A stretch of 64,000 nt of DNA from an uncultured Victivallales bacterium (GTDB taxonomy: Bacteria; Verrucomicrobiota; Lentisphaeria; Victivallales; UBA1829), in the NCBI GenBank assembly GCA_944391115.1, contig CALXSJ010000011.1, positions 26,143 through 90,142 on the forward strand. Reading direction: 5' to 3'. A model generated the notes under the pieces. That model had not been told where the DNA came from and did not search any database. It saw only the letters and a program-made list of their open reading frames with translations. Shown here piece by piece: positions 55,631 to 63,481 of the stretch. The position numbers and the translations under genes are program-made. Every line of letters begins with the position of its first letter. The first letter of the stretch is position 1.

Positions 55631-56239
55631 TCAGGGCAGCATCGCCAATACGGCGGGAACCAGTTGCTCCACCGGACAGCTGGCTGTGTTGGCGCAGAAG
55701 TCATAGTTGACCTTGTCTCCCCACACCTGGCCCGTGTAGAAACGGTAATAGGCGGCACGGTTTTTATCGATGCTCAGAATGCGCTGCTTCAGTTCCCTGT
55801 CGGAGACCTTTTCCTGTTCCGGAAGGCGTTTCCGGCATCGCGCCATGCGCTCCTCGATGGGCGCATAGACGAAAATGCGGAGCGGCTTTTTTTCCTGAAG
55901 GATGTAATCCGCGCAGCGTCCGACCAGAATGCAGTCCGATTTCGCCGCCATCTCCTTGATGATCCGGCACTGTTCGTGATAGATGGAGAGCGTCTGCTCC
56001 TGAAGCGGATTCAAATTGAGGTTCGGATAGAAATTATGCCCCGTCGCAAACGGGAACCAGTGGGAGGGACGGCGTTCCACCACCTGCTGGACATACTGTT
56101 CCGCCAGAGAGGTTTTTTCCGCGATTCCCGTGATGATCTCCTTGTCGTAATAGGCGATTCCGAGTTTTTCCGCCAGCAGCAGGCCGAGATCCCGCCCTCC
56201 GCTTCCGAATTCCCGCCCGATGGTAATGATTCTGTTCAT
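55631..56239 (-). CDS. cytidylate kinase-like family protein
   Basis: MNRIITIGREFGSGGRDLGLLLAEKLGIAYYDKEII is the characteristic start of this family. The ORF-track N-terminal extension to 56578 overlaps the ATPase gene and is rejected. Confidence 0.85.
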   Translation of the reverse strand: MNRIITIGREFGSGGRDLGLLLAEKLGIAYYDKEIITGIAEKTSLAEQYVQQVVERRPSHWFPFATGHNFYPNLNLNPLQEQTLSIYHEQCRIIKEMAAKSDCILVGRCADYILQEKKPLRIFVYAPIEERMARCRKRLPEQEKVSDRELKQRILSIDKNRAAYYRFYTGQVWGDKVNYDFCANTASCPVEQLVPAVLAMLP

Positions 56240-56318
56240 GCTGCAACTCCTGTGCCGGACCGGCAACCGGTTAAAAAGTCCATATCTTCGCTTTACAATA
56301 GCATGAAACGGGATAATT

Positions 56319-58247
56319 TCAACTTTCCGGGATGTTTCCCGACACCGGTTTCCCGGAAAAACTGCCGGCGGCTTCCCGCTTTCCTTCCGCGCATCCGGAG
56401 GGCCGGAACCGCATGGCGCGCAGCGCGTTCGCCACGGCGAGCAGGGCGACGCCGACGTCGGCGAAGATGGCAAACCAGACCGACGCGCAGCCGCACAGCG
56501 CCATGACCATGATCGCCCCCTTGAACCCGAGCGCCATGACGATGTTCTCCCGGACGATCCGTCTGGTTTTCCCGGCAATGGCGATCGCCGTTGCGATTTT
56601 TCCGATGTCGTCGTTCATAATCACGACATCCGCGGCTTCAATTGCGGCGTCGGAACCGATGCCGCCCATTGCGATTCCCAGATCGGCGCGGGCAAGAACC
56701 GGGGCGTCGTTGATGCCGTCCCCGACAAACGCCGTTTTCCCTTTTCCCGCATCTTCCGCCATCCATGTCTCCAGTTCCGCAATCTTGTCCTGCGGCAGAA
56801 GATCCGCGCGCCAGAGATCGATTCCGGCTTCCTGCGCGATTTTTCCGGCGAGCGCGGCATTGTCTCCCGTCAGCATGGCGATGCGCGACACTCCCGCCTC
56901 CCGGAGTCTCCGGAGCGCATCGCGCACGCCGGGGCGGAGTTCGTCGGCAATCAGGATGCAGCCGAGATACCGCCCGTCCCGTGCCGCATGGAGTGTCGTT
57001 TCCGGGTATTCCGGAAGAGATTGAATGCCGATGCGCTTCATCAGAGCGGCGTTGCCGGCGGCAATGACTTCCCCGGCGGTCCTGACCTCGATTCCCATTC
57101 CGGCGATTTCCCTGACTTCGCTTTTTGTCTCCGGAACATTTCCTGCGGCGGCAAGAATGGAACGGGCGATCGGGTGGTTCGACTGCGCTTCGGCAAGCGC
57201 GGCAATGCGCAGGAGTTCCTCACGCGTCACTCCTTCCGCGGGATGATATTCCGTCACCTGGAAAACGCCGCGCGTCAGAGTGCCCGTCTTGTCGAATGCC
57301 ACGGTCCCGAGTTCTCCCAGACGCTCCAGAAAATTGCCCCCCTTCACCAGAATGCCGTTTCGCGCGGCTCCGCCGATCCCGCCGAAAAAGCTCAGGGGGA
57401 TGGAGAGCACCAGCGCGCAGGGGCAGGAAATGATCAGGAAGGTGAGCGCCTTGTAAATCCATTCCGGAAAAGTGCCGAAACCGGCGAGCGGCGGCAGAAT
57501 CGCGACCAGAAGCGCAGCGCCGACCACCAGCGGCGTGTAGATGCGCGCGAATTTCGTGATGAACTTTTCCGCGGAGGCCTTTCTCCCCGCGGCGTTGCGG
57601 ACCAGATCCAGGATCCGGGAAACCGTGGATTCCGGGAAAGCCCTTTCCACCCGGATCTCCAGCACTCCGTCCAGACAGATCACTCCGGAGAGCACCTCGT
57701 CGCCGGGAAGCGCCTTCCGCGGAACGGATTCCCCGGTCAGGGCGCAGGTGTCGAGGAAGGCGCTTCCGGTTTGCACGGTTCCGTCCAGAGGCACTTTTTC
57801 GCCGGGTTTTACCACGACAACTTCTCCGACGGAGACAGATTCCGGAGGAACGTTCAGAATTTTTCCGTCACGCTTCACATTCGCGCTGTCGCTCCGCAGA
57901 TCCATCAGACTCTCAATGTTTCTTCTGGATTTCGCCACGGCGGAATCCTGGAGATATTCTCCGATCCCGTAAAAGACCATCACGGATACCGCCTCGGGCA
58001 TTTCCCCGATTGCAAATGCGCCGATCGAGGCGACGCTCATCAGAAAATTCTCATCGAACAGTTCGCCGCGGAAGATGTTTTTCCCCGCGTCGGCAAGGAC
58101 TCTCCACCCGGCCAGAAGATATGCCGCGATGAAAAGAAGAAGCCGTACGCGTTCCGGAAGCGGAGCGCATACGGCGCCTGCCGTCAGCGCCGCGGCCGCG
58201 CCAAGCAGTATTAATGGGAGTTTCACGGAATCCTGATTTTCCTGCAT
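56319..58247 (-). CDS. heavy-metal-translocating P1B-type ATPase (CPC type, no N-terminal HMA domain)
   Basis: SCPCALVLSIP, FDKTGTLT, GDGINDAP. No CxxC metal-binding domain at the N-terminus. Confidence 0.93.
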   Translation of the reverse strand: MQENQDSVKLPLILLGAAAALTAGAVCAPLPERVRLLLFIAAYLLAGWRVLADAGKNIFRGELFDENFLMSVASIGAFAIGEMPEAVSVMVFYGIGEYLQDSAVAKSRRNIESLMDLRSDSANVKRDGKILNVPPESVSVGEVVVVKPGEKVPLDGTVQTGSAFLDTCALTGESVPRKALPGDEVLSGVICLDGVLEIRVERAFPESTVSRILDLVRNAAGRKASAEKFITKFARIYTPLVVGAALLVAILPPLAGFGTFPEWIYKALTFLIISCPCALVLSIPLSFFGGIGGAARNGILVKGGNFLERLGELGTVAFDKTGTLTRGVFQVTEYHPAEGVTREELLRIAALAEAQSNHPIARSILAAAGNVPETKSEVREIAGMGIEVRTAGEVIAAGNAALMKRIGIQSLPEYPETTLHAARDGRYLGCILIADELRPGVRDALRRLREAGVSRIAMLTGDNAALAGKIAQEAGIDLWRADLLPQDKIAELETWMAEDAGKGKTAFVGDGINDAPVLARADLGIAMGGIGSDAAIEAADVVIMNDDIGKIATAIAIAGKTRRIVRENIVMALGFKGAIMVMALCGCASVWFAIFADVGVALLAVANALRAMRFRPSGCAEGKREAAGSFSGKPVSGNIPES

Positions 58248-58295
58248 TTTCTTACCGTCCTCGGTTTTCTTGTTCCGGGGAAAAGCCGTATACTT

Positions 58296-58311
58296 ATACC
58301 CCTATAGGTAT
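58296..58311. promoter_or_regulatory. CsoR-type operator ATACCCCTATAGGTAT
   Basis: A pseudo-palindrome (ATACC...GGTAT) flanked by an outer dyad CTTATA/TATAAG. It matches the ATACCCCT-n-AGGGGTAT-like CsoR operator consensus known from Bacillus/Streptomyces. It lies directly downstream of the candidate -10 of the ATPase promoter. Confidence 0.6.
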
Positions 58312-58312
58312 T

Positions 58313-58340
58313 AATATAAGTGAAGAAAAAGAAAAATCAA
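58313..58340 (-). promoter_or_regulatory. sigma70-like promoter of the P-type ATPase gene
   Basis: On the minus strand: TTGATT (58335-58340), 16-nt spacer, TATATT (58313-58318). Confidence 0.45.
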
Positions 58341-58347
58341 GGGGAAA

Positions 58348-58623
58348 TCACGACATTCTGGAAAAATGTTCCAGGGCCTTGGAAAAATCGGAAAGAGTTT
58401 TTTCCGCGTCACCGTGCTCGATGCCGTAGCGGACGCAGTGATTGAGATGGCCTTCGAGAACAATCTGGCCGATTTTGTGAAGCGCGCTCTTCGCCGCGTT
58501 GATCTGGATCAGAATGTCTTCACAGGGGACGTCGCGGTCGATCATTTTCTCCACCGCGTTCAGCTGTCCGATGACTTTTTTCAGCCGGAGATGCAGTTTC
58601 TCCGAATCCATGCATTGTTTCAT
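58348..58623 (-). CDS. csoR: CsoR/RcnR-family metal-sensing transcriptional repressor
   Basis: MKQCMDSEKLHLRLKKVIGQLNAVEKMIDRDVPCEDILIQINAAKSALHKIGQIVLEGHLNHCV: the DUF156 fold with a C...H-x3-C (x-C-H-C) fingerprint. AAGGAGG RBS. The ORF-track start at 58722 is rejected. Confidence 0.85.
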   Translation of the reverse strand: MKQCMDSEKLHLRLKKVIGQLNAVEKMIDRDVPCEDILIQINAAKSALHKIGQIVLEGHLNHCVRYGIEHGDAEKTLSDFSKALEHFSRMS

Positions 58624-58651
58624 TGCCCCGCCTCCTTGCAGTTCCGGTCTT

Positions 58652-58680
58652 AAGATACCGCACGGAACGGGATTTTTCAA
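58652..58680 (-). promoter_or_regulatory. sigma70-like promoter of csoR
   Basis: On the minus strand: TTGAAA (58675-58680), 17-nt spacer, TATCTT (58652-58657). Confidence 0.45.
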
Positions 58681-58780
58681 GTCCGGGGCGGTTTCCCCGC
58701 AGGAAGAGCAAAACCGCGGCAAGGTGTTCCCGCGATATCTTCCTGCATGAATTTTTTGTTTTTCTTGCCCCGCGGAAATC

Positions 58781-58808
58781 TTGAAAAAAACGGAAGGCGC
58801 GGTAAATT
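58781..58808 (+). promoter_or_regulatory. sigma70-like promoter candidate of the NifU-like/GGGtGRT operon
   Basis: TTGAAA (58781-58786), 16-nt spacer, TAAATT (58803-58808). AGGAG RBS before the ATG at 58866. Confidence 0.4.
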
Positions 58809-58865
58809 ACCATTCTTGGTTTGAATTTTCCTTGCAACCTTACAACATAACAGGAGAAACATGCG

Positions 58866-59558
58866 ATGAACTTCACACACGAAGTCGAGCAGATGTGCTG
58901 CGTCGCCAAGGGCCCGAAGCACGGACCCGCGCCGATTCCGCAGGAAGGCGCCTGGACAAAGGCTTACGAGATCAAGGATATTTCCGGTCTCACCCACGGT
59001 GTCGGCTGGTGCGCTCCCCAGCAGGGCGCCTGCAAGCTGACGCTCAATGTCAAGAACGGGATCATCCAGGAGGCTCTCGTCGAGACCATCGGCTGTTCCG
59101 GAATGACGCACTCCGCCGCGATGGCCGCCGAAATCCTGCCCGGCAAAACCATTCTGGAAGCCCTGAACACCGACCTTGTCTGTGACGCGATCAATACCGC
59201 GATGCGCGAACTGTTCCTCCAGATCGTCTACGGACGCACGCAGACGGCCTTCTCCGAAGGCGGCCTGCCGATCGGCGCCGGACTGGAAGACCTCGGCAAG
59301 GGGCTCCGCTCCATCACGGGCACGATGTACGGCACGAGCGCCAAAGGCGTCCGCTATCTTGAAATGGCCGAAGGCTATGTCACGGAAATCGCGCTGGATG
59401 ACGAGGACAAGGTCATCGGCTACAAGTTCATCAAGCTCGGACCCATGCTCGACGCGATCAGCAAGGGCATGGACGCGAACGAGGCGCTCAAGAAGTTCAC
59501 CGGAACCTACGGACGCTTCGCCGACGCCGCCAAAACCATCAACCCGCGTCATCAGTAA
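58866..59558 (+). CDS. NifU/IscU-N-terminal-like Fe-S scaffold-like protein with an extra C-terminal domain
   Basis: The blocks GVGWCAPQQGACKLTLNVKNGIIQEALVETIGCSGMTHSAAMAAEILPGKTILEAL resemble the IscU/NifU-N fold with conserved Cys positions. The roughly 100-aa C-terminal extension has no recognisable family. Confidence 0.7.
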   Translation: MNFTHEVEQMCCVAKGPKHGPAPIPQEGAWTKAYEIKDISGLTHGVGWCAPQQGACKLTLNVKNGIIQEALVETIGCSGMTHSAAMAAEILPGKTILEALNTDLVCDAINTAMRELFLQIVYGRTQTAFSEGGLPIGAGLEDLGKGLRSITGTMYGTSAKGVRYLEMAEGYVTEIALDDEDKVIGYKFIKLGPMLDAISKGMDANEALKKFTGTYGRFADAAKTINPRHQ

Positions 59559-59573
59559 GGGGGAGTCGTCACC

Positions 59574-60572
59574 ATGGCACTTTTTGAAAGCTACGACCGC
59601 AGAATTGCGCAGATCAATAAATTCCTCAACGACAACGGCATTGCCTCCCTTGAGGAAGCCGAACAGATCACGAAGGGCAAGGGGCTTGACATCTACAAGC
59701 GCGTCAAGGACATCCAGCCGATCTGCTTTGAGAACGCCTGCTGGGCCTATCTCGTGGGCGCCGCCGTCGCCATCAAGCGCGGACAGACCGTCGCAAGCGA
59801 AATTGCAAAAACTCTCGGAGAGGGACTTCAGTCCTTCTGCATTCCCGGATCCGTCGCCGACGACCGCAAAGTCGGACTCGGGCACGGCAATCTCGCCTCG
59901 ATGCTGCTGCGCGATGAGACGAAATGCTTCGCGTTCTGCGCGGGCCATGAGTCCTTTGCCGCCGCCGAAGGCGCGATCGGGCTTGCCCGCAGTGCGAACA
60001 AGGCGCGCAAGGAGCCGCTCCGCGTCATCCTGAACGGCCTCGGAAAAGACGCCGCCCAGATCATCTCCCGCATCAACGGCTTCACCGGCGTCGAAACGGA
60101 ATTCGACTACATGACCGGCAAGCTCAAAATCGTCTCCGAGCGCGCATACAGCAAAGGCGAGCGCGCGGCGGTCCGCTGCTACGGCGCGGATGACGTCCGC
60201 GAGGGCGTCGCGATCATGTGGCAGGAGGGTGTGGACATCGCCATTACCGGCAACTCCACGAATCCGACCCGCTTCCAGCATCCCGTCATGGCTACCTACA
60301 AGAAGGAGCGCATCGAAAAGGGAATGCCCTTCTTCTCCGTCGCCTCCGGCGGCGGAACGGGCAGAACGCTTCATCCCGACAACATGGCCGCCGGTCCCGC
60401 CTCCTACGGCATGACCGACACGATGGGCCGGATGCATTCCGACGCGCAGTTCGCCGGTTCCTCCTCGGTTCCCGCGCACGTTGAAATGATGGGACTCATC
60501 GGCATGGGCAACAACCCGATGGTCGGCGCTTCCGTCGATGTCGCGGTTGCCGTTGCGCAGGCGATGAAATAA
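59574..60572 (+). CDS. GGGtGRT-family protein (uncharacterised)
   Basis: Contains the family-defining motif ...FFSVASGGGTGRTLHPDNMAAGPASYGMTDTMGRMHSD.... The length of about 330 aa is as expected. Starts 15 nt after the upstream stop. Confidence 0.8.
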   Translation: MALFESYDRRIAQINKFLNDNGIASLEEAEQITKGKGLDIYKRVKDIQPICFENACWAYLVGAAVAIKRGQTVASEIAKTLGEGLQSFCIPGSVADDRKVGLGHGNLASMLLRDETKCFAFCAGHESFAAAEGAIGLARSANKARKEPLRVILNGLGKDAAQIISRINGFTGVETEFDYMTGKLKIVSERAYSKGERAAVRCYGADDVREGVAIMWQEGVDIAITGNSTNPTRFQHPVMATYKKERIEKGMPFFSVASGGGTGRTLHPDNMAAGPASYGMTDTMGRMHSDAQFAGSSSVPAHVEMMGLIGMGNNPMVGASVDVAVAVAQAMK

Positions 60573-60600
60573 ATCCTTCCGGCATTTCTGCCGGTCATGA

Positions 60601-60642
60601 AAAACGGGATGTTCTCCGGACCGGGGTGCATCCCGTTTTTTT
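60601..60642 (+). terminator. Rho-independent terminator of the NifU-like/GGGtGRT operon
   Basis: Stem aaaacgggatg / catcccgtttt followed by a T-run ending at 60642. A smaller hairpin ccggca-tttc-tgccgg lies just upstream (60578-60593). Confidence 0.8.
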
Positions 60643-61089
60643 ATATTCCTGCGGAAGTTAGGCGGCAAACTCTTTCCGGGGATCCTTGCCGGATCATTTC
60701 GTCTCCCCGGCGGCATTCCGGCAGACGCAGTTCCGGTTATGCGCAAGTTGCGGTGTTCCGCCGTGGCAAGGAGGAATCCATACCACCCGCCTTTCTTTGC
60801 TGTATTCATGCAGACAGATAAGGTGTTCCGCTTCTTGCCGACTCGGAAATTCCCTGAATCAGTTCGACGGCACGGCGTCCCTCTGCGCTGTTGGGGTCAG
60901 GCTCCCGGCAGTTTTAGATCGCATCGGCAGAGTCGCTGATTTGATTGCGATGCCTGTTTCCCGCAATCCCCATGGGGGCGTCCGCCGCTGGCATTTGCTG
61001 TCTGTTTCAATATGGAAATCCCGGAGCGCAGGTCGTGCCCGCTTCTAGCGTTCCGAAGGATCCGTATCAACTGAATTTCCAATTGCCTT

Positions 61090-61880
61090 GCGGTCATCCG
61101 GGTCTGTCAAGGAGTCGGCCTTCCGCAAGTATGGGGGGCAAATCAGTCGCCGTACTGCGTGCAGATACATGGAGAAGTCTGGTTTCATCACATGTAAAAC
61201 TCCGTTCAGAGTTGCCGGGAAACGGAACCCCGCCAAAGTTGAGGCCTGTTCAAGGAGGAGCGTCCCGCCATACGGGAAAAGGCCGTTGCGGAAAATGGAA
61301 CAATCCTTTTTTGGGGGACGAATTCCCCGTTCTCACGTGCGGGACAAAGATGCGCGCCTGTTCTCCGATGGGGACAGCGCCAATGCTGCGAGCTTCTGCG
61401 GATCGCTCAATTCGCTGCAATATGATTTCCGCCGTCAGCGGCAGAGGGGGGAGATGAGGGTTCATGATCTTTGAAGAAACAGGGAATGTCGATGTATCCA
61501 AGGAGTTTTTCTCAGGACTGAACAGGAAAATCAATGGAAGGATTTTTCTTGTCGTGGAAATCAGAAGGTCCGTCATCTCCAATGTCTTGCTGAATGGCTG
61601 GAATGTCGGAGCGGGATGCCGGAATTTTCTTATCCGCCCGGCTGTTCTCCGGAACTCTCCCTCCGATGAACATTTGAACAGGGGGTTGAAAGCCGGATTG
61701 ACGGGACAGGATCTTCCCAGTTTAATGGGCGCTTTGAGTCAAAGCTCTGAAATGCATATGAGAAAAAGAGAGCGCAGGCCTGACTTCATCAAGAAATTCT
61801 TTGAAAAAGACGAGATTCGTGAAGCTTTTAAAGATTGCCGAGATTTTTCTATGGCCTGCACAGCAAATAAAATGTTCTGA
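61090..61880 (+). pseudogene. decayed IS630/Tc1-mariner-like DDE transposase remnant
   Basis: Pieces in two frames read like IS630 blocks: ISRRTACRYMEKSGFITCKTP (second HTH); FLGDEFPVLTCGTKMRACSPMGTAP (first D, then r.W...G..P); RCNMISAVSGRGG, then an in-frame TGA at 61455-61457; FEETGNVDVSKEFFSGLNRKINGRIFLVVEI (the lvlDN position); NSPSDEHLNRGLKAGL (the YSPELNP.E..W..lK position). At least one frameshift and one stop are present. This is by-eye recognition only. Confidence 0.4.
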
Positions 61881-62377
61881 TTCTCAGAAGAAGTGGGTTG
61901 AGAAATCAGAAAAATCAAGGAAGCCTTCCCGTTCCAGGAAAGTCTGCGGATTGAAATCGGAGATTTGGATGCAAAACTTCCGGAATTCCGCATCGCTCCG
62001 GATTCCGGAAGTCCCTTTCTTACGGGAGTCTCGATCGCTGCGGAGGAATCCGCGATATTCCTGATCTGGAAGATACGCCTTGGTTTGCCGGGCCTTTCGC
62101 CGGCCGCATGAAACGTGCGGGAATTATTCCGGACGAAATTTTTCCCTTGAAAAAATCTGAAAACTCCTGCCCATATATGGAACTGCGGGCAAGAGCTGAG
62201 TCCCGCGTCACTTTTTTCCGCTTCGATGCGCGTGCGGCAGCATCCGGAAACGCCTGGGGAAAAGCGGGGTAAGGCGGAGCGGTATGCGTGATCTGCGAAA
62301 TTCCGGAACATTCAGAACATCTGCCGGTGACGGAAGGCTCATTCCGGTGGTTCTGCCGCCGTCCCGAGGATGAGCGG

Positions 62378-63481
62378 TTACATTCCGCAATGTGCCGATG
62401 GTTCCTCTGCGGGATTGTCCAGAATCGGGGAAAACACGATCTCCTGCGGCGTGTAATGATCCTGAAAGAGACTCTGCACCGCGAAGACGCCGATGGAGAG
62501 ATAATCGAATTTCACACTCGGAATGCAGGGGGTGTACTTGTTGTTGAAGTCATAGGGAAACAATGTGACAAGGGACGTTTTCTCCGGCAGACCGAGATTC
62601 GAGTTCAGTGAATGTGCGAAGTTCAGTGCGGGGGAATCATGCACGCCGAACAGGAGTCCGTCGAAGGCGGTTTCCTTCTGAAATTTCCGCAGGCGTTCGA
62701 CAAACGCCATGGGCGGCTCATTGATCCCGCCGATGTCGCAGAGAAGCTGCGGATGAGTTCCGGGAAGATTTTCAAGTGCGCGCAGATAAGCGCTCCTGAC
62801 CGGATTGAACTCGTTGTTCAGAAAACTGGTTGCCAGCGCGATCCGGGAAGCGCCCCGCTGCACGAGATAGTCGAGAGCTTTCTCGATTCCTCCTGCGAGA
62901 TCGGCCTTGCAGCAGACCCACTGATCCACAGCCTGCTTCAGACTCGAATTCCGATAATTCAGATGATGGATGTGGGCGATCCGGAATTTCTTTCGGAGAA
63001 AAAGCGGGAAAATCGGAGCATACCAGTTGCTGTAGAAGATGATCCTGCTTCCGTCAGGCAGACGTTCCAGAATTGTTTCATCGAAATCCTCGATCCGGTT
63101 GGTTGTTGTCAGCGGGAGAGTGATGACATGGGCTTTCCGGAGGCATGCCTCCTGGAGACAGCCGCTCAGAATGTCACGGAGAATGCTGCGCGTTTCAAAA
63201 TCGGATTTCAGAAAATAGTCGGAGCAGGGCAGCAGGAGAAAGACATTTCCGACATCGCTTCCGGTGCGGTGCGGCAGGAAAGTGCCTTTGCCGGGAATGC
63301 GCTCCAGAAGCCCCTCTTTTTCCAGGATGTCAAGCGATCCGCGGAGGGTTTTTCTTGTGATTCCCAGCATGGCGGCCAGTTCCGGCTCGACGGGCAGGCG
63401 GTTCCGGTTCGCATATGCGCCGGAAAGGATCTCCTTTTTCAGTTTCCCGGCGATTTCGAGGCGTTTGACAGGCGGTCTCAT
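62378..63481 (-). CDS. GntR-family transcriptional regulator with a LacI/PBP1-like sugar-binding domain (AraR-like architecture)
   Basis: wHTH RLPVEPELAAMLGITRKTLRGSLDILEKEGLLERIPGKGTFL followed by about 290 aa of effector domain. Same architecture as 29815..30888. Confidence 0.9.
   Translation of the reverse strand: MRPPVKRLEIAGKLKKEILSGAYANRNRLPVEPELAAMLGITRKTLRGSLDILEKEGLLERIPGKGTFLPHRTGSDVGNVFLLLPCSDYFLKSDFETRSILRDILSGCLQEACLRKAHVITLPLTTTNRIEDFDETILERLPDGSRIIFYSNWYAPIFPLFLRKKFRIAHIHHLNYRNSSLKQAVDQWVCCKADLAGGIEKALDYLVQRGASRIALATSFLNNEFNPVRSAYLRALENLPGTHPQLLCDIGGINEPPMAFVERLRKFQKETAFDGLLFGVHDSPALNFAHSLNSNLGLPEKTSLVTLFPYDFNNKYTPCIPSVKFDYLSIGVFAVQSLFQDHYTPQEIVFSPILDNPAEEPSAHCGM

What the first reader, a model, noticed from the sequence alone, without database searches (positions are those of the whole stretch)
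58866..60572. NifU-like scaffold protein plus GGGtGRT-family protein: a two-gene operon of unknown function next to a metal module
The operon appears to be a self-contained transcription unit: promoter candidate at 58781, 15-nt intergenic gap, strong terminator at 60601. It encodes an IscU/NifU-N-like protein with an extra domain of about 100 aa. It also encodes a member of the uncharacterised family named after its invariant GGGTGRT motif, which is present here as SGGGTGRTLHPD. It is transcribed divergently from the csoR / P-type ATPase pair. The pairing suggests an unrecognised metallocluster- or cofactor-handling system. No function has been assigned to GGGtGRT proteins as far as I know.
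Basis: partly seen in the sequence, partly recalled or inferred. Interest (0 to 1): 0.65.

Follow-up and report, generated by a model that had tools for sequence, protein, structure and literature searches.

The report
Conserved NifU-like/GGGtGRT gene pair, function unknown
This is an ordinary copy of a two-gene unit that anaerobic microbes from at least eight phyla keep almost unchanged and express strongly when iron is plentiful. It is probably a two-subunit iron-sulfur enzyme whose reaction nobody has identified, and its position next to a metal-export module is a coincidence.

Summary
Two real genes (58866-59558, 230 aa; 59574-60572, 332 aa) form a compact unit with a promoter-like site, a 15-nt gap and a strong terminator. 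The second is a full-length PF14057 GGGtGRT protein. The first has an IscU-type fold with three universally conserved cysteines, but scores below every IscU/NifU family threshold.

In 80 genomes from at least 8 phyla, the NifU-like gene lies directly upstream of GGGtGRT in all 76 loci that have room for it. The pairing also holds in a Methanobacteriaceae archaeon, a Vibrio and a 54%-identical divergent lineage. No other neighbour is conserved. None of the 80 loci carries a CsoR or P-type ATPase, so the "metal module" link is incidental.

The family is extremely conserved (about 81% mean identity across phyla) and has no solved-structure relative. Thirteen papers up to 2026 mention it, and none of those read assigns a function. 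Published data show iron-dependent expression, high abundance in vivo, and a transposon phenotype from the same screen as pfkA. The divergent lineage sits among phosphoglycerate-mutase-type genes.

Best reading: a heteromeric Fe-S enzyme, possibly acting on a phosphorylated C3 metabolite. That reading is an inference, not a demonstration.

The parts
58781..58808 (+). Sigma-70-type promoter-like site (TTGAAA, 16 nt, TAAATT), about 58 nt upstream of the first ATG.
   Evidence: Consensus scan, 9/12. The -35 and -10 hexamers align with TTGAAA / TATATT in the closest Lentisphaeria locus, L001. No transcription start data are available.
58866..59558 (+). Small subunit gene: 230-aa U-type (IscU/NifU-N-like) protein with family-specific N- and C-terminal extensions.
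   Evidence: ORF. Sub-threshold NifU_N hit. A profile of 21 orthologues hits mainly IscU/NifU/SufU chains in PDB, including all 17 best hits. Foldseek's top 33 hits are IscU/ISCU/SufU. Found directly upstream of GGGtGRT in 76/76 loci.
58983..59240 (+). U-type core (about residues 40-125). It carries the universally conserved H44, C49, C77 and C106, and the nearly universal C56. Codons: C49 59010-59012, C56 59031-59033, C77 59094-59096, C106 59181-59183.
   Evidence: Alignments A2 and the wide alignment of 80 sequences. IscU alignments. Predicted secondary structure of three strands plus helices.
59559..59573 (+). 15-nt intergenic spacer with a GGGGGAG ribosome-binding site. The genes are probably co-transcribed.
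   Evidence: Sequence. In related loci the distance from the end of the partner match to the GGGtGRT start is mostly 8-82 nt, and the genes overlap by 4-11 nt in the divergent lineage. One contig from a chicken-gut run labelled RNA-Seq spans 59505-59809; DNA carry-over is not excluded.
59574..60572 (+). Large subunit gene: 332-aa GGGtGRT protein (PF14057).
   Evidence: Pfam 620 bits, full length. More than 8000 homologues, with the top 120 mostly 80-99% identical across phyla. AF2 model pTM 0.78 with a helical N-domain and an alpha/beta domain.
60345..60380 (+). SGGGTGRTLHPD motif (residues 258-269), at the start of the near-invariant segment 254-318.
   Evidence: Sequence. Invariant across 13 sequences from 8 phyla. 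Mostly retained in the 54%-identity lineage. AF2 pLDDT is below 50 for 258-312 in the monomer.
60599..60641 (+). Intrinsic terminator hairpin followed by a U-run. A smaller hairpin lies at 60579-60594.
   Evidence: RNA fold of 60573-60650: -37.3 kcal/mol, z = -5.75, 0 of 200 shuffles as stable. The scan also flags the inner stem at 60622-60635.

Best explanation
The two genes encode the two subunits of one cytoplasmic protein complex. It is an iron-sulfur enzyme of anaerobes, not an Fe-S assembly scaffold and not part of the adjacent metal-efflux module.

**Proposed mechanism**
- The 230-aa subunit keeps the IscU fold and its cysteine triad (C49/C77/C106, plus C56 and H44). It holds a stably bound Fe-S cluster.
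- The 332-aa GGGtGRT subunit supplies the catalytic site. This site is built from an alpha/beta domain with glycine-rich loops (NGLGKD, SGGGTGRT), five universally conserved histidines (H104, H125, H267, H288, H302) and one near-universal cysteine (C202).
- The near-invariant segment 254-318 probably folds only against the partner or a cofactor.
- The substrate is most likely a small phosphorylated intermediate near the phosphoglycerate node of glycolysis.

**Shown**
- Obligate gene pairing and probable co-transcription.
- Extreme sequence constraint.
- U-type fold and conserved ligand-type residues.
- Absence of any conserved third gene.
- Published iron-dependent expression and high abundance.

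**Inferred**
- Physical complex formation.
- Cluster binding.
- Catalysis.
- The nature of the substrate.
For: **Pairing**
- 76/76 loci with upstream room, across Lentisphaerota, Bacillota, Bacteroidota, Acidobacteriota, Myxococcota, Desulfobacterota-type lineages, Spirochaetota and Actinomycetota.
- Also in a Methanobacteriaceae MAG, a Vibrio and the 54%-identity lineage.
- Pairwise identities of the two proteins are correlated across 72 loci (r = 0.62).

**Constraint**
- Mean pairwise identity is 81% (GGGtGRT) and 78% (partner) across phyla.
- 140 of 319 alignment columns are invariant in 72 loci.
- Among the 150 best of 1.84 billion 50%-identity cluster representatives, only one other intact full-length cluster stood out.

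**Cluster-binding subunit**
- IscU-only structural and sequence hits.
- C49, C77, C106 and H44 are in 80/80 sequences; C56 is in 79/80.

**Enzyme rather than scaffold**
- No cysteine desulfurase or any other recurrent neighbour.
- IscU equivalog score is 20.7 against 192.4.
- Transcripts drop 11-13-fold under iron depletion in B. thetaiotaomicron (PMC10434189).
- Protein is 7.1-fold higher in iron-replete C. pasteurianum, following hydrogenase and PFOR (PMC5395762).
- High in-vivo abundance in gut and rumen proteomes (PMC11204068, PMC7035244), and deep metatranscriptome coverage.

**Phosphorylated C3 substrate**
- All six distinct divergent-lineage contexts place the pair beside a His_Phos_1 phosphatase/mutase gene. 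Five also have ApgM (517 bits, above the equivalog cut-off of 489), one has iPGM and one has a HAD hydrolase.
- Transposon insertions in BT0173-4 de-repress Cur/Roc in glucose, in the same screen that recovered pfkA (bioRxiv 10.64898/2026.04.10.717545).
Against: - No biochemical data exist for either protein.
- The AF2 models are mediocre: large subunit pLDDT 74, with the motif region below 50; small subunit pLDDT 53. No complex model could be made.
- The large subunit has no significant structural or sequence relative in PDB, so 'phosphate-binding catalytic domain' rests only on glycine-rich loops and an alpha/beta topology.
- The phosphoglycerate-mutase context occurs only in the divergent lineage, which may have a different function. 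The main lineage, including this window, has no informative neighbours.
- The B. thetaiotaomicron phenotype is modest (2-fold) and was not followed up.
- Repression under low iron is also compatible with an iron-storage or cluster-carrier role.
Confidence: 0.45

Rival explanations
1. The pair is an Fe-S cluster biogenesis or trafficking module. The NifU-like protein is a genuine transient scaffold or carrier. GGGtGRT is its dedicated accessory, for example a chaperone, an iron or sulfur donor, or a nucleotide-dependent release factor.
For: - U-type fold with three conserved cysteines.
- NCBI and JGI name the partner 'iron-sulfur cluster assembly scaffold protein' or 'NifU-like protein'.
- Expression responds to iron.
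Against: - Scores are far below the IscU/NifU/SufU family cut-offs.
- The position aligned with IscU's cluster-labilising Asp is Ala55, and the first Cys is displaced.
- There is no LPPVK-type motif before C106 (sequence compared with my own knowledge of IscU).
- No cysteine desulfurase recurs among the neighbours of 80 loci.
- Expression falls under iron limitation, like Fe-S client enzymes.
- Abundance and conservation exceed what is usual for assembly factors.
Confidence: 0.2
2. The pair is an iron, redox or metabolite sensor, or an iron or Fe-S storage protein. In this reading it buffers iron or tunes glycolytic flux and regulators such as Cur, without catalysing a metabolic reaction.
For: - Strong positive response to iron in two phyla.
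- Very high abundance.
- Modest regulatory phenotype on Cur/Roc.
- Many conserved His, Met and Cys residues.
Against: - No DNA-binding or signalling domain is detected.
- A near-invariant stretch of about 65 residues and five universal histidines look more like an active site than a storage surface.
- The divergent lineage is embedded among metabolic phosphomutase and phosphatase genes.
Confidence: 0.12
3. The pair works with the divergently transcribed CsoR-family repressor and P1B-type ATPase as part of one metal-handling system.
For: - Physical adjacency and a shared intergenic region of about 140-240 nt in this window.
Against: - tblastn with the window's CsoR and ATPase finds no homologue in any of 80 related loci.
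- The closest relatives, L001 and L034, have different upstream genes.
- Neighbours differ in the Vibrio, archaeal and divergent loci.
Confidence: 0.03

Closest known systems
Pfam PF14057 'GGGtGRT protein' with its adjacent 'NifU' gene, for example Bacteroides thetaiotaomicron BT0173-BT0174
   Same: - Same family: full-length HMM match of 620 bits.
- Same gene order.
- Same partner: Bacteroides partners are 79-80% identical and Bacteroides GGGtGRT is about 75% identical to the window's proteins.
- The published behaviour of BT0173-74 (iron-dependent expression, transposon phenotype) can reasonably be transferred.
   Different: - Nothing substantive.
- The window copy comes from a bird- or chicken-gut Victivallales-type bacterium.
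- It happens to lie beside a CsoR/P1B-ATPase pair.
U-type Fe-S scaffolds IscU / NifU N-domain / SufU (PF01592, TIGR01999, TIGR03419, TIGR01994)
   Same: - Same core fold (Foldseek E down to 8e-5).
- Conserved Cys after the third strand (GCSG against GCGS) and at the start of the C-terminal helix.
- Likely metal or cluster ligation at the same site.
   Different: - Scores lie below every family cut-off.
- The first Cys is displaced (C49/C56 flank the IscU position), and Ala replaces the labilising Asp.
- There is a fourth near-universal Cys.
- It has about 40 extra N-terminal and about 105 extra C-terminal residues.
- It is never next to a cysteine desulfurase and always next to GGGtGRT.
Heteromeric Fe-S enzymes of anaerobes built from a small and a large subunit, for example two-subunit Fe-S L-serine dehydratase. 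This is an analogy from general knowledge only.
   Same: - A subunit pair of about 220 aa plus about 300 aa.
- Restricted mainly to anaerobes, with expression that depends on iron.
- Possibly an Fe-S cluster whose ligands come mostly from one subunit.
   Different: - No sequence or structural similarity was detected to any such enzyme.
- The analogy concerns architecture only and was not tested.

Membership tests
Pfam PF14057 GGGtGRT | Full-length match to the family HMM above the gathering score | tested here: met
   620 bits against a cut-off of 27; profile positions 1-327 of 327.
Pfam PF14057 GGGtGRT | Conserved GGGTGRT sequence motif | tested here: met
   SGGGTGRTLHPD at residues 258-269. 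Invariant in the 13-sequence, 8-phylum alignment.
   15-nt gap in the window. Present in 76/76 testable loci, plus archaeal, Vibrio and divergent-lineage loci.
IscU / NifU_N U-type scaffold (PF01592; TIGR01999, TIGR03419, TIGR01994) | HMM score at or above the curated cut-off | tested here: not met
   PF01592 gives 21.3 against 22; TIGR03419 26.1 against 187.9; TIGR01999 20.7 against 192.4; TIGR01994 19.0 against 92.5. The Vibrio orthologue just passes Pfam (26.5).
IscU / NifU_N U-type scaffold | U-type fold (three-stranded sheet packed against helices) | tested here: met
   Foldseek's top 33 PDB hits are IscU/ISCU/SufU, with E 8e-5 to 7e-3 and about 3 A rmsd over about 97 residues for several. 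The query model has low confidence (pLDDT 53).
IscU / NifU_N U-type scaffold | Three conserved cluster-ligand cysteines | tested here: inconclusive
   C77 and C106 align with the second and third IscU cysteines. The first IscU Cys position holds Gln53, flanked by C49 (80/80) and C56 (79/80).
IscU / NifU_N U-type scaffold | Conserved Asp next to the first Cys, which makes the cluster transferable, and an LPPVK chaperone-binding motif. These features are taken from my own knowledge of IscU. | tested here: not met
   The aligned position is Ala55 ('QQGACKL' against 'ACGDVMKL'). The sequence before C106 is 'LNTDLVC', with no LPPVK.
IscU / NifU_N U-type scaffold | Genomic association with a cysteine desulfurase (IscS/NifS/SufS) | tested here: not met
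   No family recurs in more than 5 of 71 upstream or 5 of 69 downstream neighbours, and no aminotransferase class V family appears among the recurrent ones.
CsoR / P1B-ATPase metal-resistance module | Conserved co-occurrence with the pair | tested here: not met
   0 of 80 loci contain a homologue of the window's CsoR or ATPase (tblastn, E <= 1e-5).
FtsZ/tubulin GTPases (GGGTG[ST]G signature) | Profile-level similarity around the glycine-rich loop | tested here: not met
No FtsZ or tubulin chain appears among the 50 Foldseek hits listed.
Known anti-phage defence systems (PADLOC-DB) | Match to any defence-system protein model | tested here: not met
   No hits for the window pair or for the five divergent-cluster proteins.

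The most novel reading that the evidence does not exclude
The NifU-like/GGGtGRT pair is a previously unrecognised, widespread metalloenzyme of anaerobic central carbon metabolism. It would use a U-type-domain-bound Fe-S cluster, or a novel His/Cys-ligated cluster shared between the subunits, to transform a phosphorylated C3 intermediate at the phosphoglycerate node. This would be a missing or alternative reaction in glycolysis or gluconeogenesis, or in serine metabolism, in gut and sediment anaerobes. The IscU fold would be serving here as a permanent catalytic cluster module.
Probability: 0.2. Interest if true: 0.85.

Novelty: new member of a known kind. Interest (0 to 1): 0.58.

Why it matters
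This pair is among the most strongly conserved protein pairs that still lack a function. It is about 80% identical between bacterial phyla, and archaea carry it too.

It is one of the abundant proteins of gut and rumen anaerobes such as Bacteroides, Prevotella/Segatella, Lachnospiraceae and Megasphaera. It responds more than 10-fold to iron.

If it proves to be an Fe-S enzyme of central metabolism, it would:
- fill a gap in metabolic models of the gut microbiome;
- explain part of the iron-sparing response of anaerobes;
- give the first case of an IscU-type domain used as a fixed enzyme subunit.

For this window specifically, the result is more modest. The locus is a typical family member, and the apparent link to copper or heavy-metal handling should be dropped.

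Tried and rejected
1. **FtsZ/tubulin-like GTP-binding loop (GGGTG).** hhalign probability was 0.07, and no FtsZ chain appeared among the 50 Foldseek hits listed. Rejected.
2. **A solved-structure relative of GGGtGRT.** phmmer, a profile search and Foldseek against PDB all gave nothing significant (best E 0.83, 1.8 and 0.035).
3. **A conserved third gene.** I clustered 793 ORFs from 80 loci and ran Pfam on 140 nearest neighbours. Only lineage-specific synteny appeared: a GlmU-C-like acetyltransferase in about 5 loci, mainly Lachnospiraceae and Ruminococcus-type genomes.
4. **A riboswitch or other known RNA leader that might reveal a ligand.** Rfam found none in window 56000-62500 or in 11 loci.
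5. **A natural fusion of the two proteins to model the complex.** Longer database proteins turned out to be assembly chimeras, tandem duplications or frameshifted sequences (P0001, P0026-29, P0250, P0278, P0301, P0356).
6. **Modelling the complex as a read-through or concatenated chain.** I did not submit it.
7. **Deeper alignments for AF2.** The partner model therefore stayed poor.
8. **Mobile-element carriage as an explanation for the conservation.** Matches came only from non-mobilizable chromid-like 'plasmids' and unannotated fecal 'Bacteriophage sp.' contigs.
9. **Defence-system membership of the divergent cluster.** PADLOC found none.
10. **In-frame stop-codon read-through between the two genes.** They share a frame here, but the spacing between the genes in other loci is often not a multiple of 3. 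Rejected.
Full report
**1. What is in the window**

A 15-nt spacer with a GGGGGAG Shine-Dalgarno sequence separates them.

A sigma-70-like site (TTGAAA-16-TAAATT) lies at 58781-58808. Both of its hexamers are conserved in the closest related locus, L001.

Downstream, an RNA fold of 60573-60650 gives -37.3 kcal/mol (z = -5.75, none of 200 shuffles as stable). It is dominated by a long hairpin at 60599-60641 that runs into a U-tract.

One contig from a chicken-gut run labelled RNA-Seq covers 59505-59809, across the intergenic gap. This agrees with co-transcription, although DNA carry-over cannot be excluded.

The 710-aa antisense ORF 58677..60809 is a GC-rich shadow. Similar shadows appear in other high-GC loci and have no family.

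**2. Family assignment**

- ORF2 is a textbook PF14057 GGGtGRT protein: 620 bits, full length. It matches no NCBIfam model. The motif SGGGTGRTLHPD is at residues 258-269.
- ORF1 is only marginally NifU_N-like by HMM. Pfam gives 21.3 bits against a gathering score of 22. NCBIfam IscU, NifU and SufU equivalogs give 19-26 bits against cut-offs of 92-192.
- A profile of 21 orthologues hits mainly IscU/NifU/SufU chains in PDB, including all 17 best hits (E from 2.6e-4).
- Even a low-confidence AF2 model (pLDDT 53) retrieves IscU/ISCU/SufU as its top 33 Foldseek hits (E from 8e-5).
- So the core, about residues 40-125, has the U-type fold. The protein is nevertheless not an IscU/NifU/SufU family member. 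It also carries about 40 N-terminal and about 105 C-terminal residues of its own.

**3. The pairing is obligate**

The 80 best loci were kept. They come from Lentisphaeria, many Clostridia, Bacteroidales, Acidobacteriota, Myxococcota, Geobacter, Syntrophobacter and Syntrophorhabdus, Treponema, Coriobacteriia and Erysipelotrichales.

tblastn with ORF1 finds a partner immediately upstream on the same strand in all 76 loci that have room upstream. In 72 of these the match is full length at 68-87% identity. The other four loci begin less than 71 nt before the GGGtGRT gene.

The pairing also holds outside this set:
- a Methanobacteriaceae MAG, with a partner 75% identical;
- a Vibrio, with 65% and 66% identity for the two proteins;
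- the only clearly divergent lineage, at 54% and 51% identity.

Pairwise identities of the two proteins are correlated across loci (r = 0.62). This fits inheritance as a unit.

**4. Nothing else is conserved around it**

I clustered all ORFs of the 80 loci and ran Pfam on the nearest upstream (71) and downstream (69) genes. No family occurs in more than 5 loci. The one recurring upstream family is a GlmU-C-like acetyltransferase in about five loci, mainly Lachnospiraceae and Ruminococcus-type genomes.

The window's CsoR-family repressor and P1B ATPase have no homologue in any of the 80 loci. The adjacency that motivated 'next to a metal module' is therefore incidental.

No Rfam family lies upstream in the window or in 11 loci.

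**5. Extreme conservation**

- The top 120 homologues of ORF2 are mostly 80-99% identical, although they come from different phyla.
- In a 13-sequence, 8-phylum alignment the mean column identity is 88%, and residues 254-318 are almost invariant.
- Across 72 loci the mean pairwise identity is 81% for GGGtGRT and 78% for the partner.
- An exhaustive HMMER search of 1.84 billion representatives of 50%-identity clusters gave 1821 hits. Among the best 150, nearly all are fragments, frameshifted sequences or assembly chimeras. Besides the main cluster, only one other intact full-length cluster (P0268, 54% identity) stood out.
- Residues universal across 80-85 sequences, including the divergent, Vibrio and archaeal ones, are:
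  - partner: H44, C49, C77, C106, and C56 in 79/80;
  - GGGtGRT: H104, H125, H267, H288, H302, and C202 in 84/85. The one exception has a Cys three residues later.
- The AF2 monomer model of GGGtGRT (pTM 0.78) shows a helical N-domain and an alpha/beta domain. It leaves 258-312, the most conserved part, at pLDDT below 50. That is what one expects if this segment folds only against the partner or a cofactor.
- No PDB relative is detectable by sequence, profile or fold.

**6. What the literature says**

A full-text search for 'GGGtGRT' returns 13 papers up to 2026. None of the six I read assigns a function, and two say explicitly that it is unclear or poorly characterised. The useful facts are:
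- The C. pasteurianum GGGtGRT protein is 7.1-fold higher in iron-replete early-phase cells, with the same pattern as hydrogenase and PFOR (PMC5395762).
[quoted passage not shown] It is also detected in rumen metaproteomes (PMC7035244).
- It is the antigen recognised by a monoclonal antibody reactive to S. copri (PMC12078515).
- Transposon insertions in BT0173-4 raise Roc 2-fold, meaning less glucose-dependent inhibition of Cur. The same screen recovered pfkA (bioRxiv 10.64898/2026.04.10.717545).
- In agreement with high expression, homologous transcripts reach high contig depths in gut metatranscriptomes.

**7. A contextual clue from the divergent lineage**

I examined six distinct contexts of the 54%-identity lineage. 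These are low-GC gut and other metagenome contigs, with 36-44% G+C in the three I measured. All keep the order partner, GGGtGRT, then a roughly 320-330-aa protein. Where examined, that third protein has two N-terminal TM-like segments and no family.
- All six have a His_Phos_1 phosphatase/mutase gene next to or near the cluster.
- Five have an ApgM-type phosphoglycerate mutase. In L081 it scores 517 bits, above the NF003104 equivalog cut-off of 489.
- One adds a bacterial iPGM, and one adds a HAD hydrolase.

This is the only functional neighbourhood signal found. It points to phosphorylated small molecules around phosphoglycerate, which fits the pfkA-like phenotype. It may not transfer to the main lineage.

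**8. Interpretation**

The most economical reading is a two-subunit Fe-S enzyme. A U-type subunit carries a fixed cluster, through three universal Cys, a near-universal fourth Cys, and perhaps H44 or C202 of the large subunit. A catalytic GGGtGRT subunit provides glycine-rich, possibly phosphate-binding loops and five universal histidines.

Rival readings:
- A biogenesis-scaffold role is less likely. The reasons are the absence of a desulfurase, the missing Asp and LPPVK features, the sub-threshold scores, expression that falls with iron limitation, and enzyme-like conservation and abundance. It is not excluded.
- A storage or sensor role is a weaker alternative.
- The metal-efflux link is contradicted by the comparative data.

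None of cluster binding, complex formation or catalysis has been shown. All three are inferences.

**9. Novelty and verdict**

The locus is a typical member of a named but uncharacterised family, in its usual two-gene arrangement. That arrangement already shows in annotations, for example BT0173-74. For the window this is 'a new member of a known kind'.

- the pairing is essentially obligate across bacteria and archaea;
- no third gene or metal module belongs to it;
- a list of universally conserved candidate ligands;
- an estimate of how narrow the family's sequence space is;
- the phosphoglycerate-mutase context of the divergent branch.

The family remains a worthwhile target for experiments.

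Noticed in passing
L081 3715-8606; L085 1581-7589; L088 391-6859; L092 301-5405; L094 742-6041; L096 118-3526: A divergent GGGtGRT lineage (about 54% identity) sits in a conserved cluster. The cluster holds an ApgM-type phosphoglycerate mutase (plus iPGM in one context and a HAD hydrolase in another), the partner, GGGtGRT, a family-less protein of about 320-330 aa with two TM-like segments, and a His_Phos_1 phosphatase/mutase. An HTH regulator is often adjacent. Its function is unknown, and it has no PADLOC hit.
   Followed up: partly
window 58348-58722 (-) and 56319-58247 (-): The CsoR-family ORF as listed starts at a TTG, but probably starts at the internal ATG (MKQCMDSEKL..., about 91 aa). 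It has a Cys ... His-x3-Cys pattern typical of Cu(I)-sensing CsoR (from my own knowledge). The adjacent 642-aa P1B ATPase has a CPC motif and no detected N-terminal metal-binding domain. It scores best with the Cd/Zn subfamily model (TIGR01512, 504 bits) rather than the Cu model (353 bits, below its cut-off). The metal specificity of this sensor/pump pair is unclear.
   Followed up: partly
window 58677-60809 (-): A 710-aa antisense ORF spans both genes. It is a GC-rich shadow reading frame. Equivalent shadows clustered in 17 other high-GC loci. It is not a gene.
   Followed up: yes
window 59556-59576: The two genes are in the same reading frame, separated by TAA plus 12 nt. The spacing between the two genes in other loci is often not a multiple of three, so read-through fusion is not a conserved feature.
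   Followed up: yes
proteins P0001, P0026, P0027, P0029, P0250, P0278, P0301, P0356: Many database 'GGGtGRT' proteins of odd length contain internal tandem duplications, frameshifts, or fusions to unrelated proteins (an ABC ATPase, a Tex-like protein, a SusD-like protein). The likely cause is cross-species misassembly, because the gene is 88-95% identical at the DNA level between species. They should not be read as domain fusions.
   Followed up: partly
protein P0012 (404 aa): One close relative (89% identity) carries a C-terminal tail of about 70 residues rich in Ala, Lys and Pro (AAKPAAKAVAVKK repeats), resembling a histone H1 tail. It could be real or could come from a missed stop codon. 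I did not examine it.
   Followed up: no
L098 6254-6970 (Vibrio sp. THAF191d, 1.85-Mb replicon): The Vibrio partner has Ala in place of C56, while C49, C77 and C106 are kept. C56 is therefore dispensable in at least one branch. The family also occurs in this marine Vibrio, outside the gut and sediment anaerobes that dominate the other loci.
   Followed up: partly
window 55631-56578 (-): The cytidylate-kinase-like (PF13189) ORF is listed with an N-terminal extension of about 115 residues rich in Arg, Ser and Pro. This is probably an over-extended start. A PF13189-type gene was also the upstream neighbour of the pair in one other locus, which looks coincidental.
   Followed up: no
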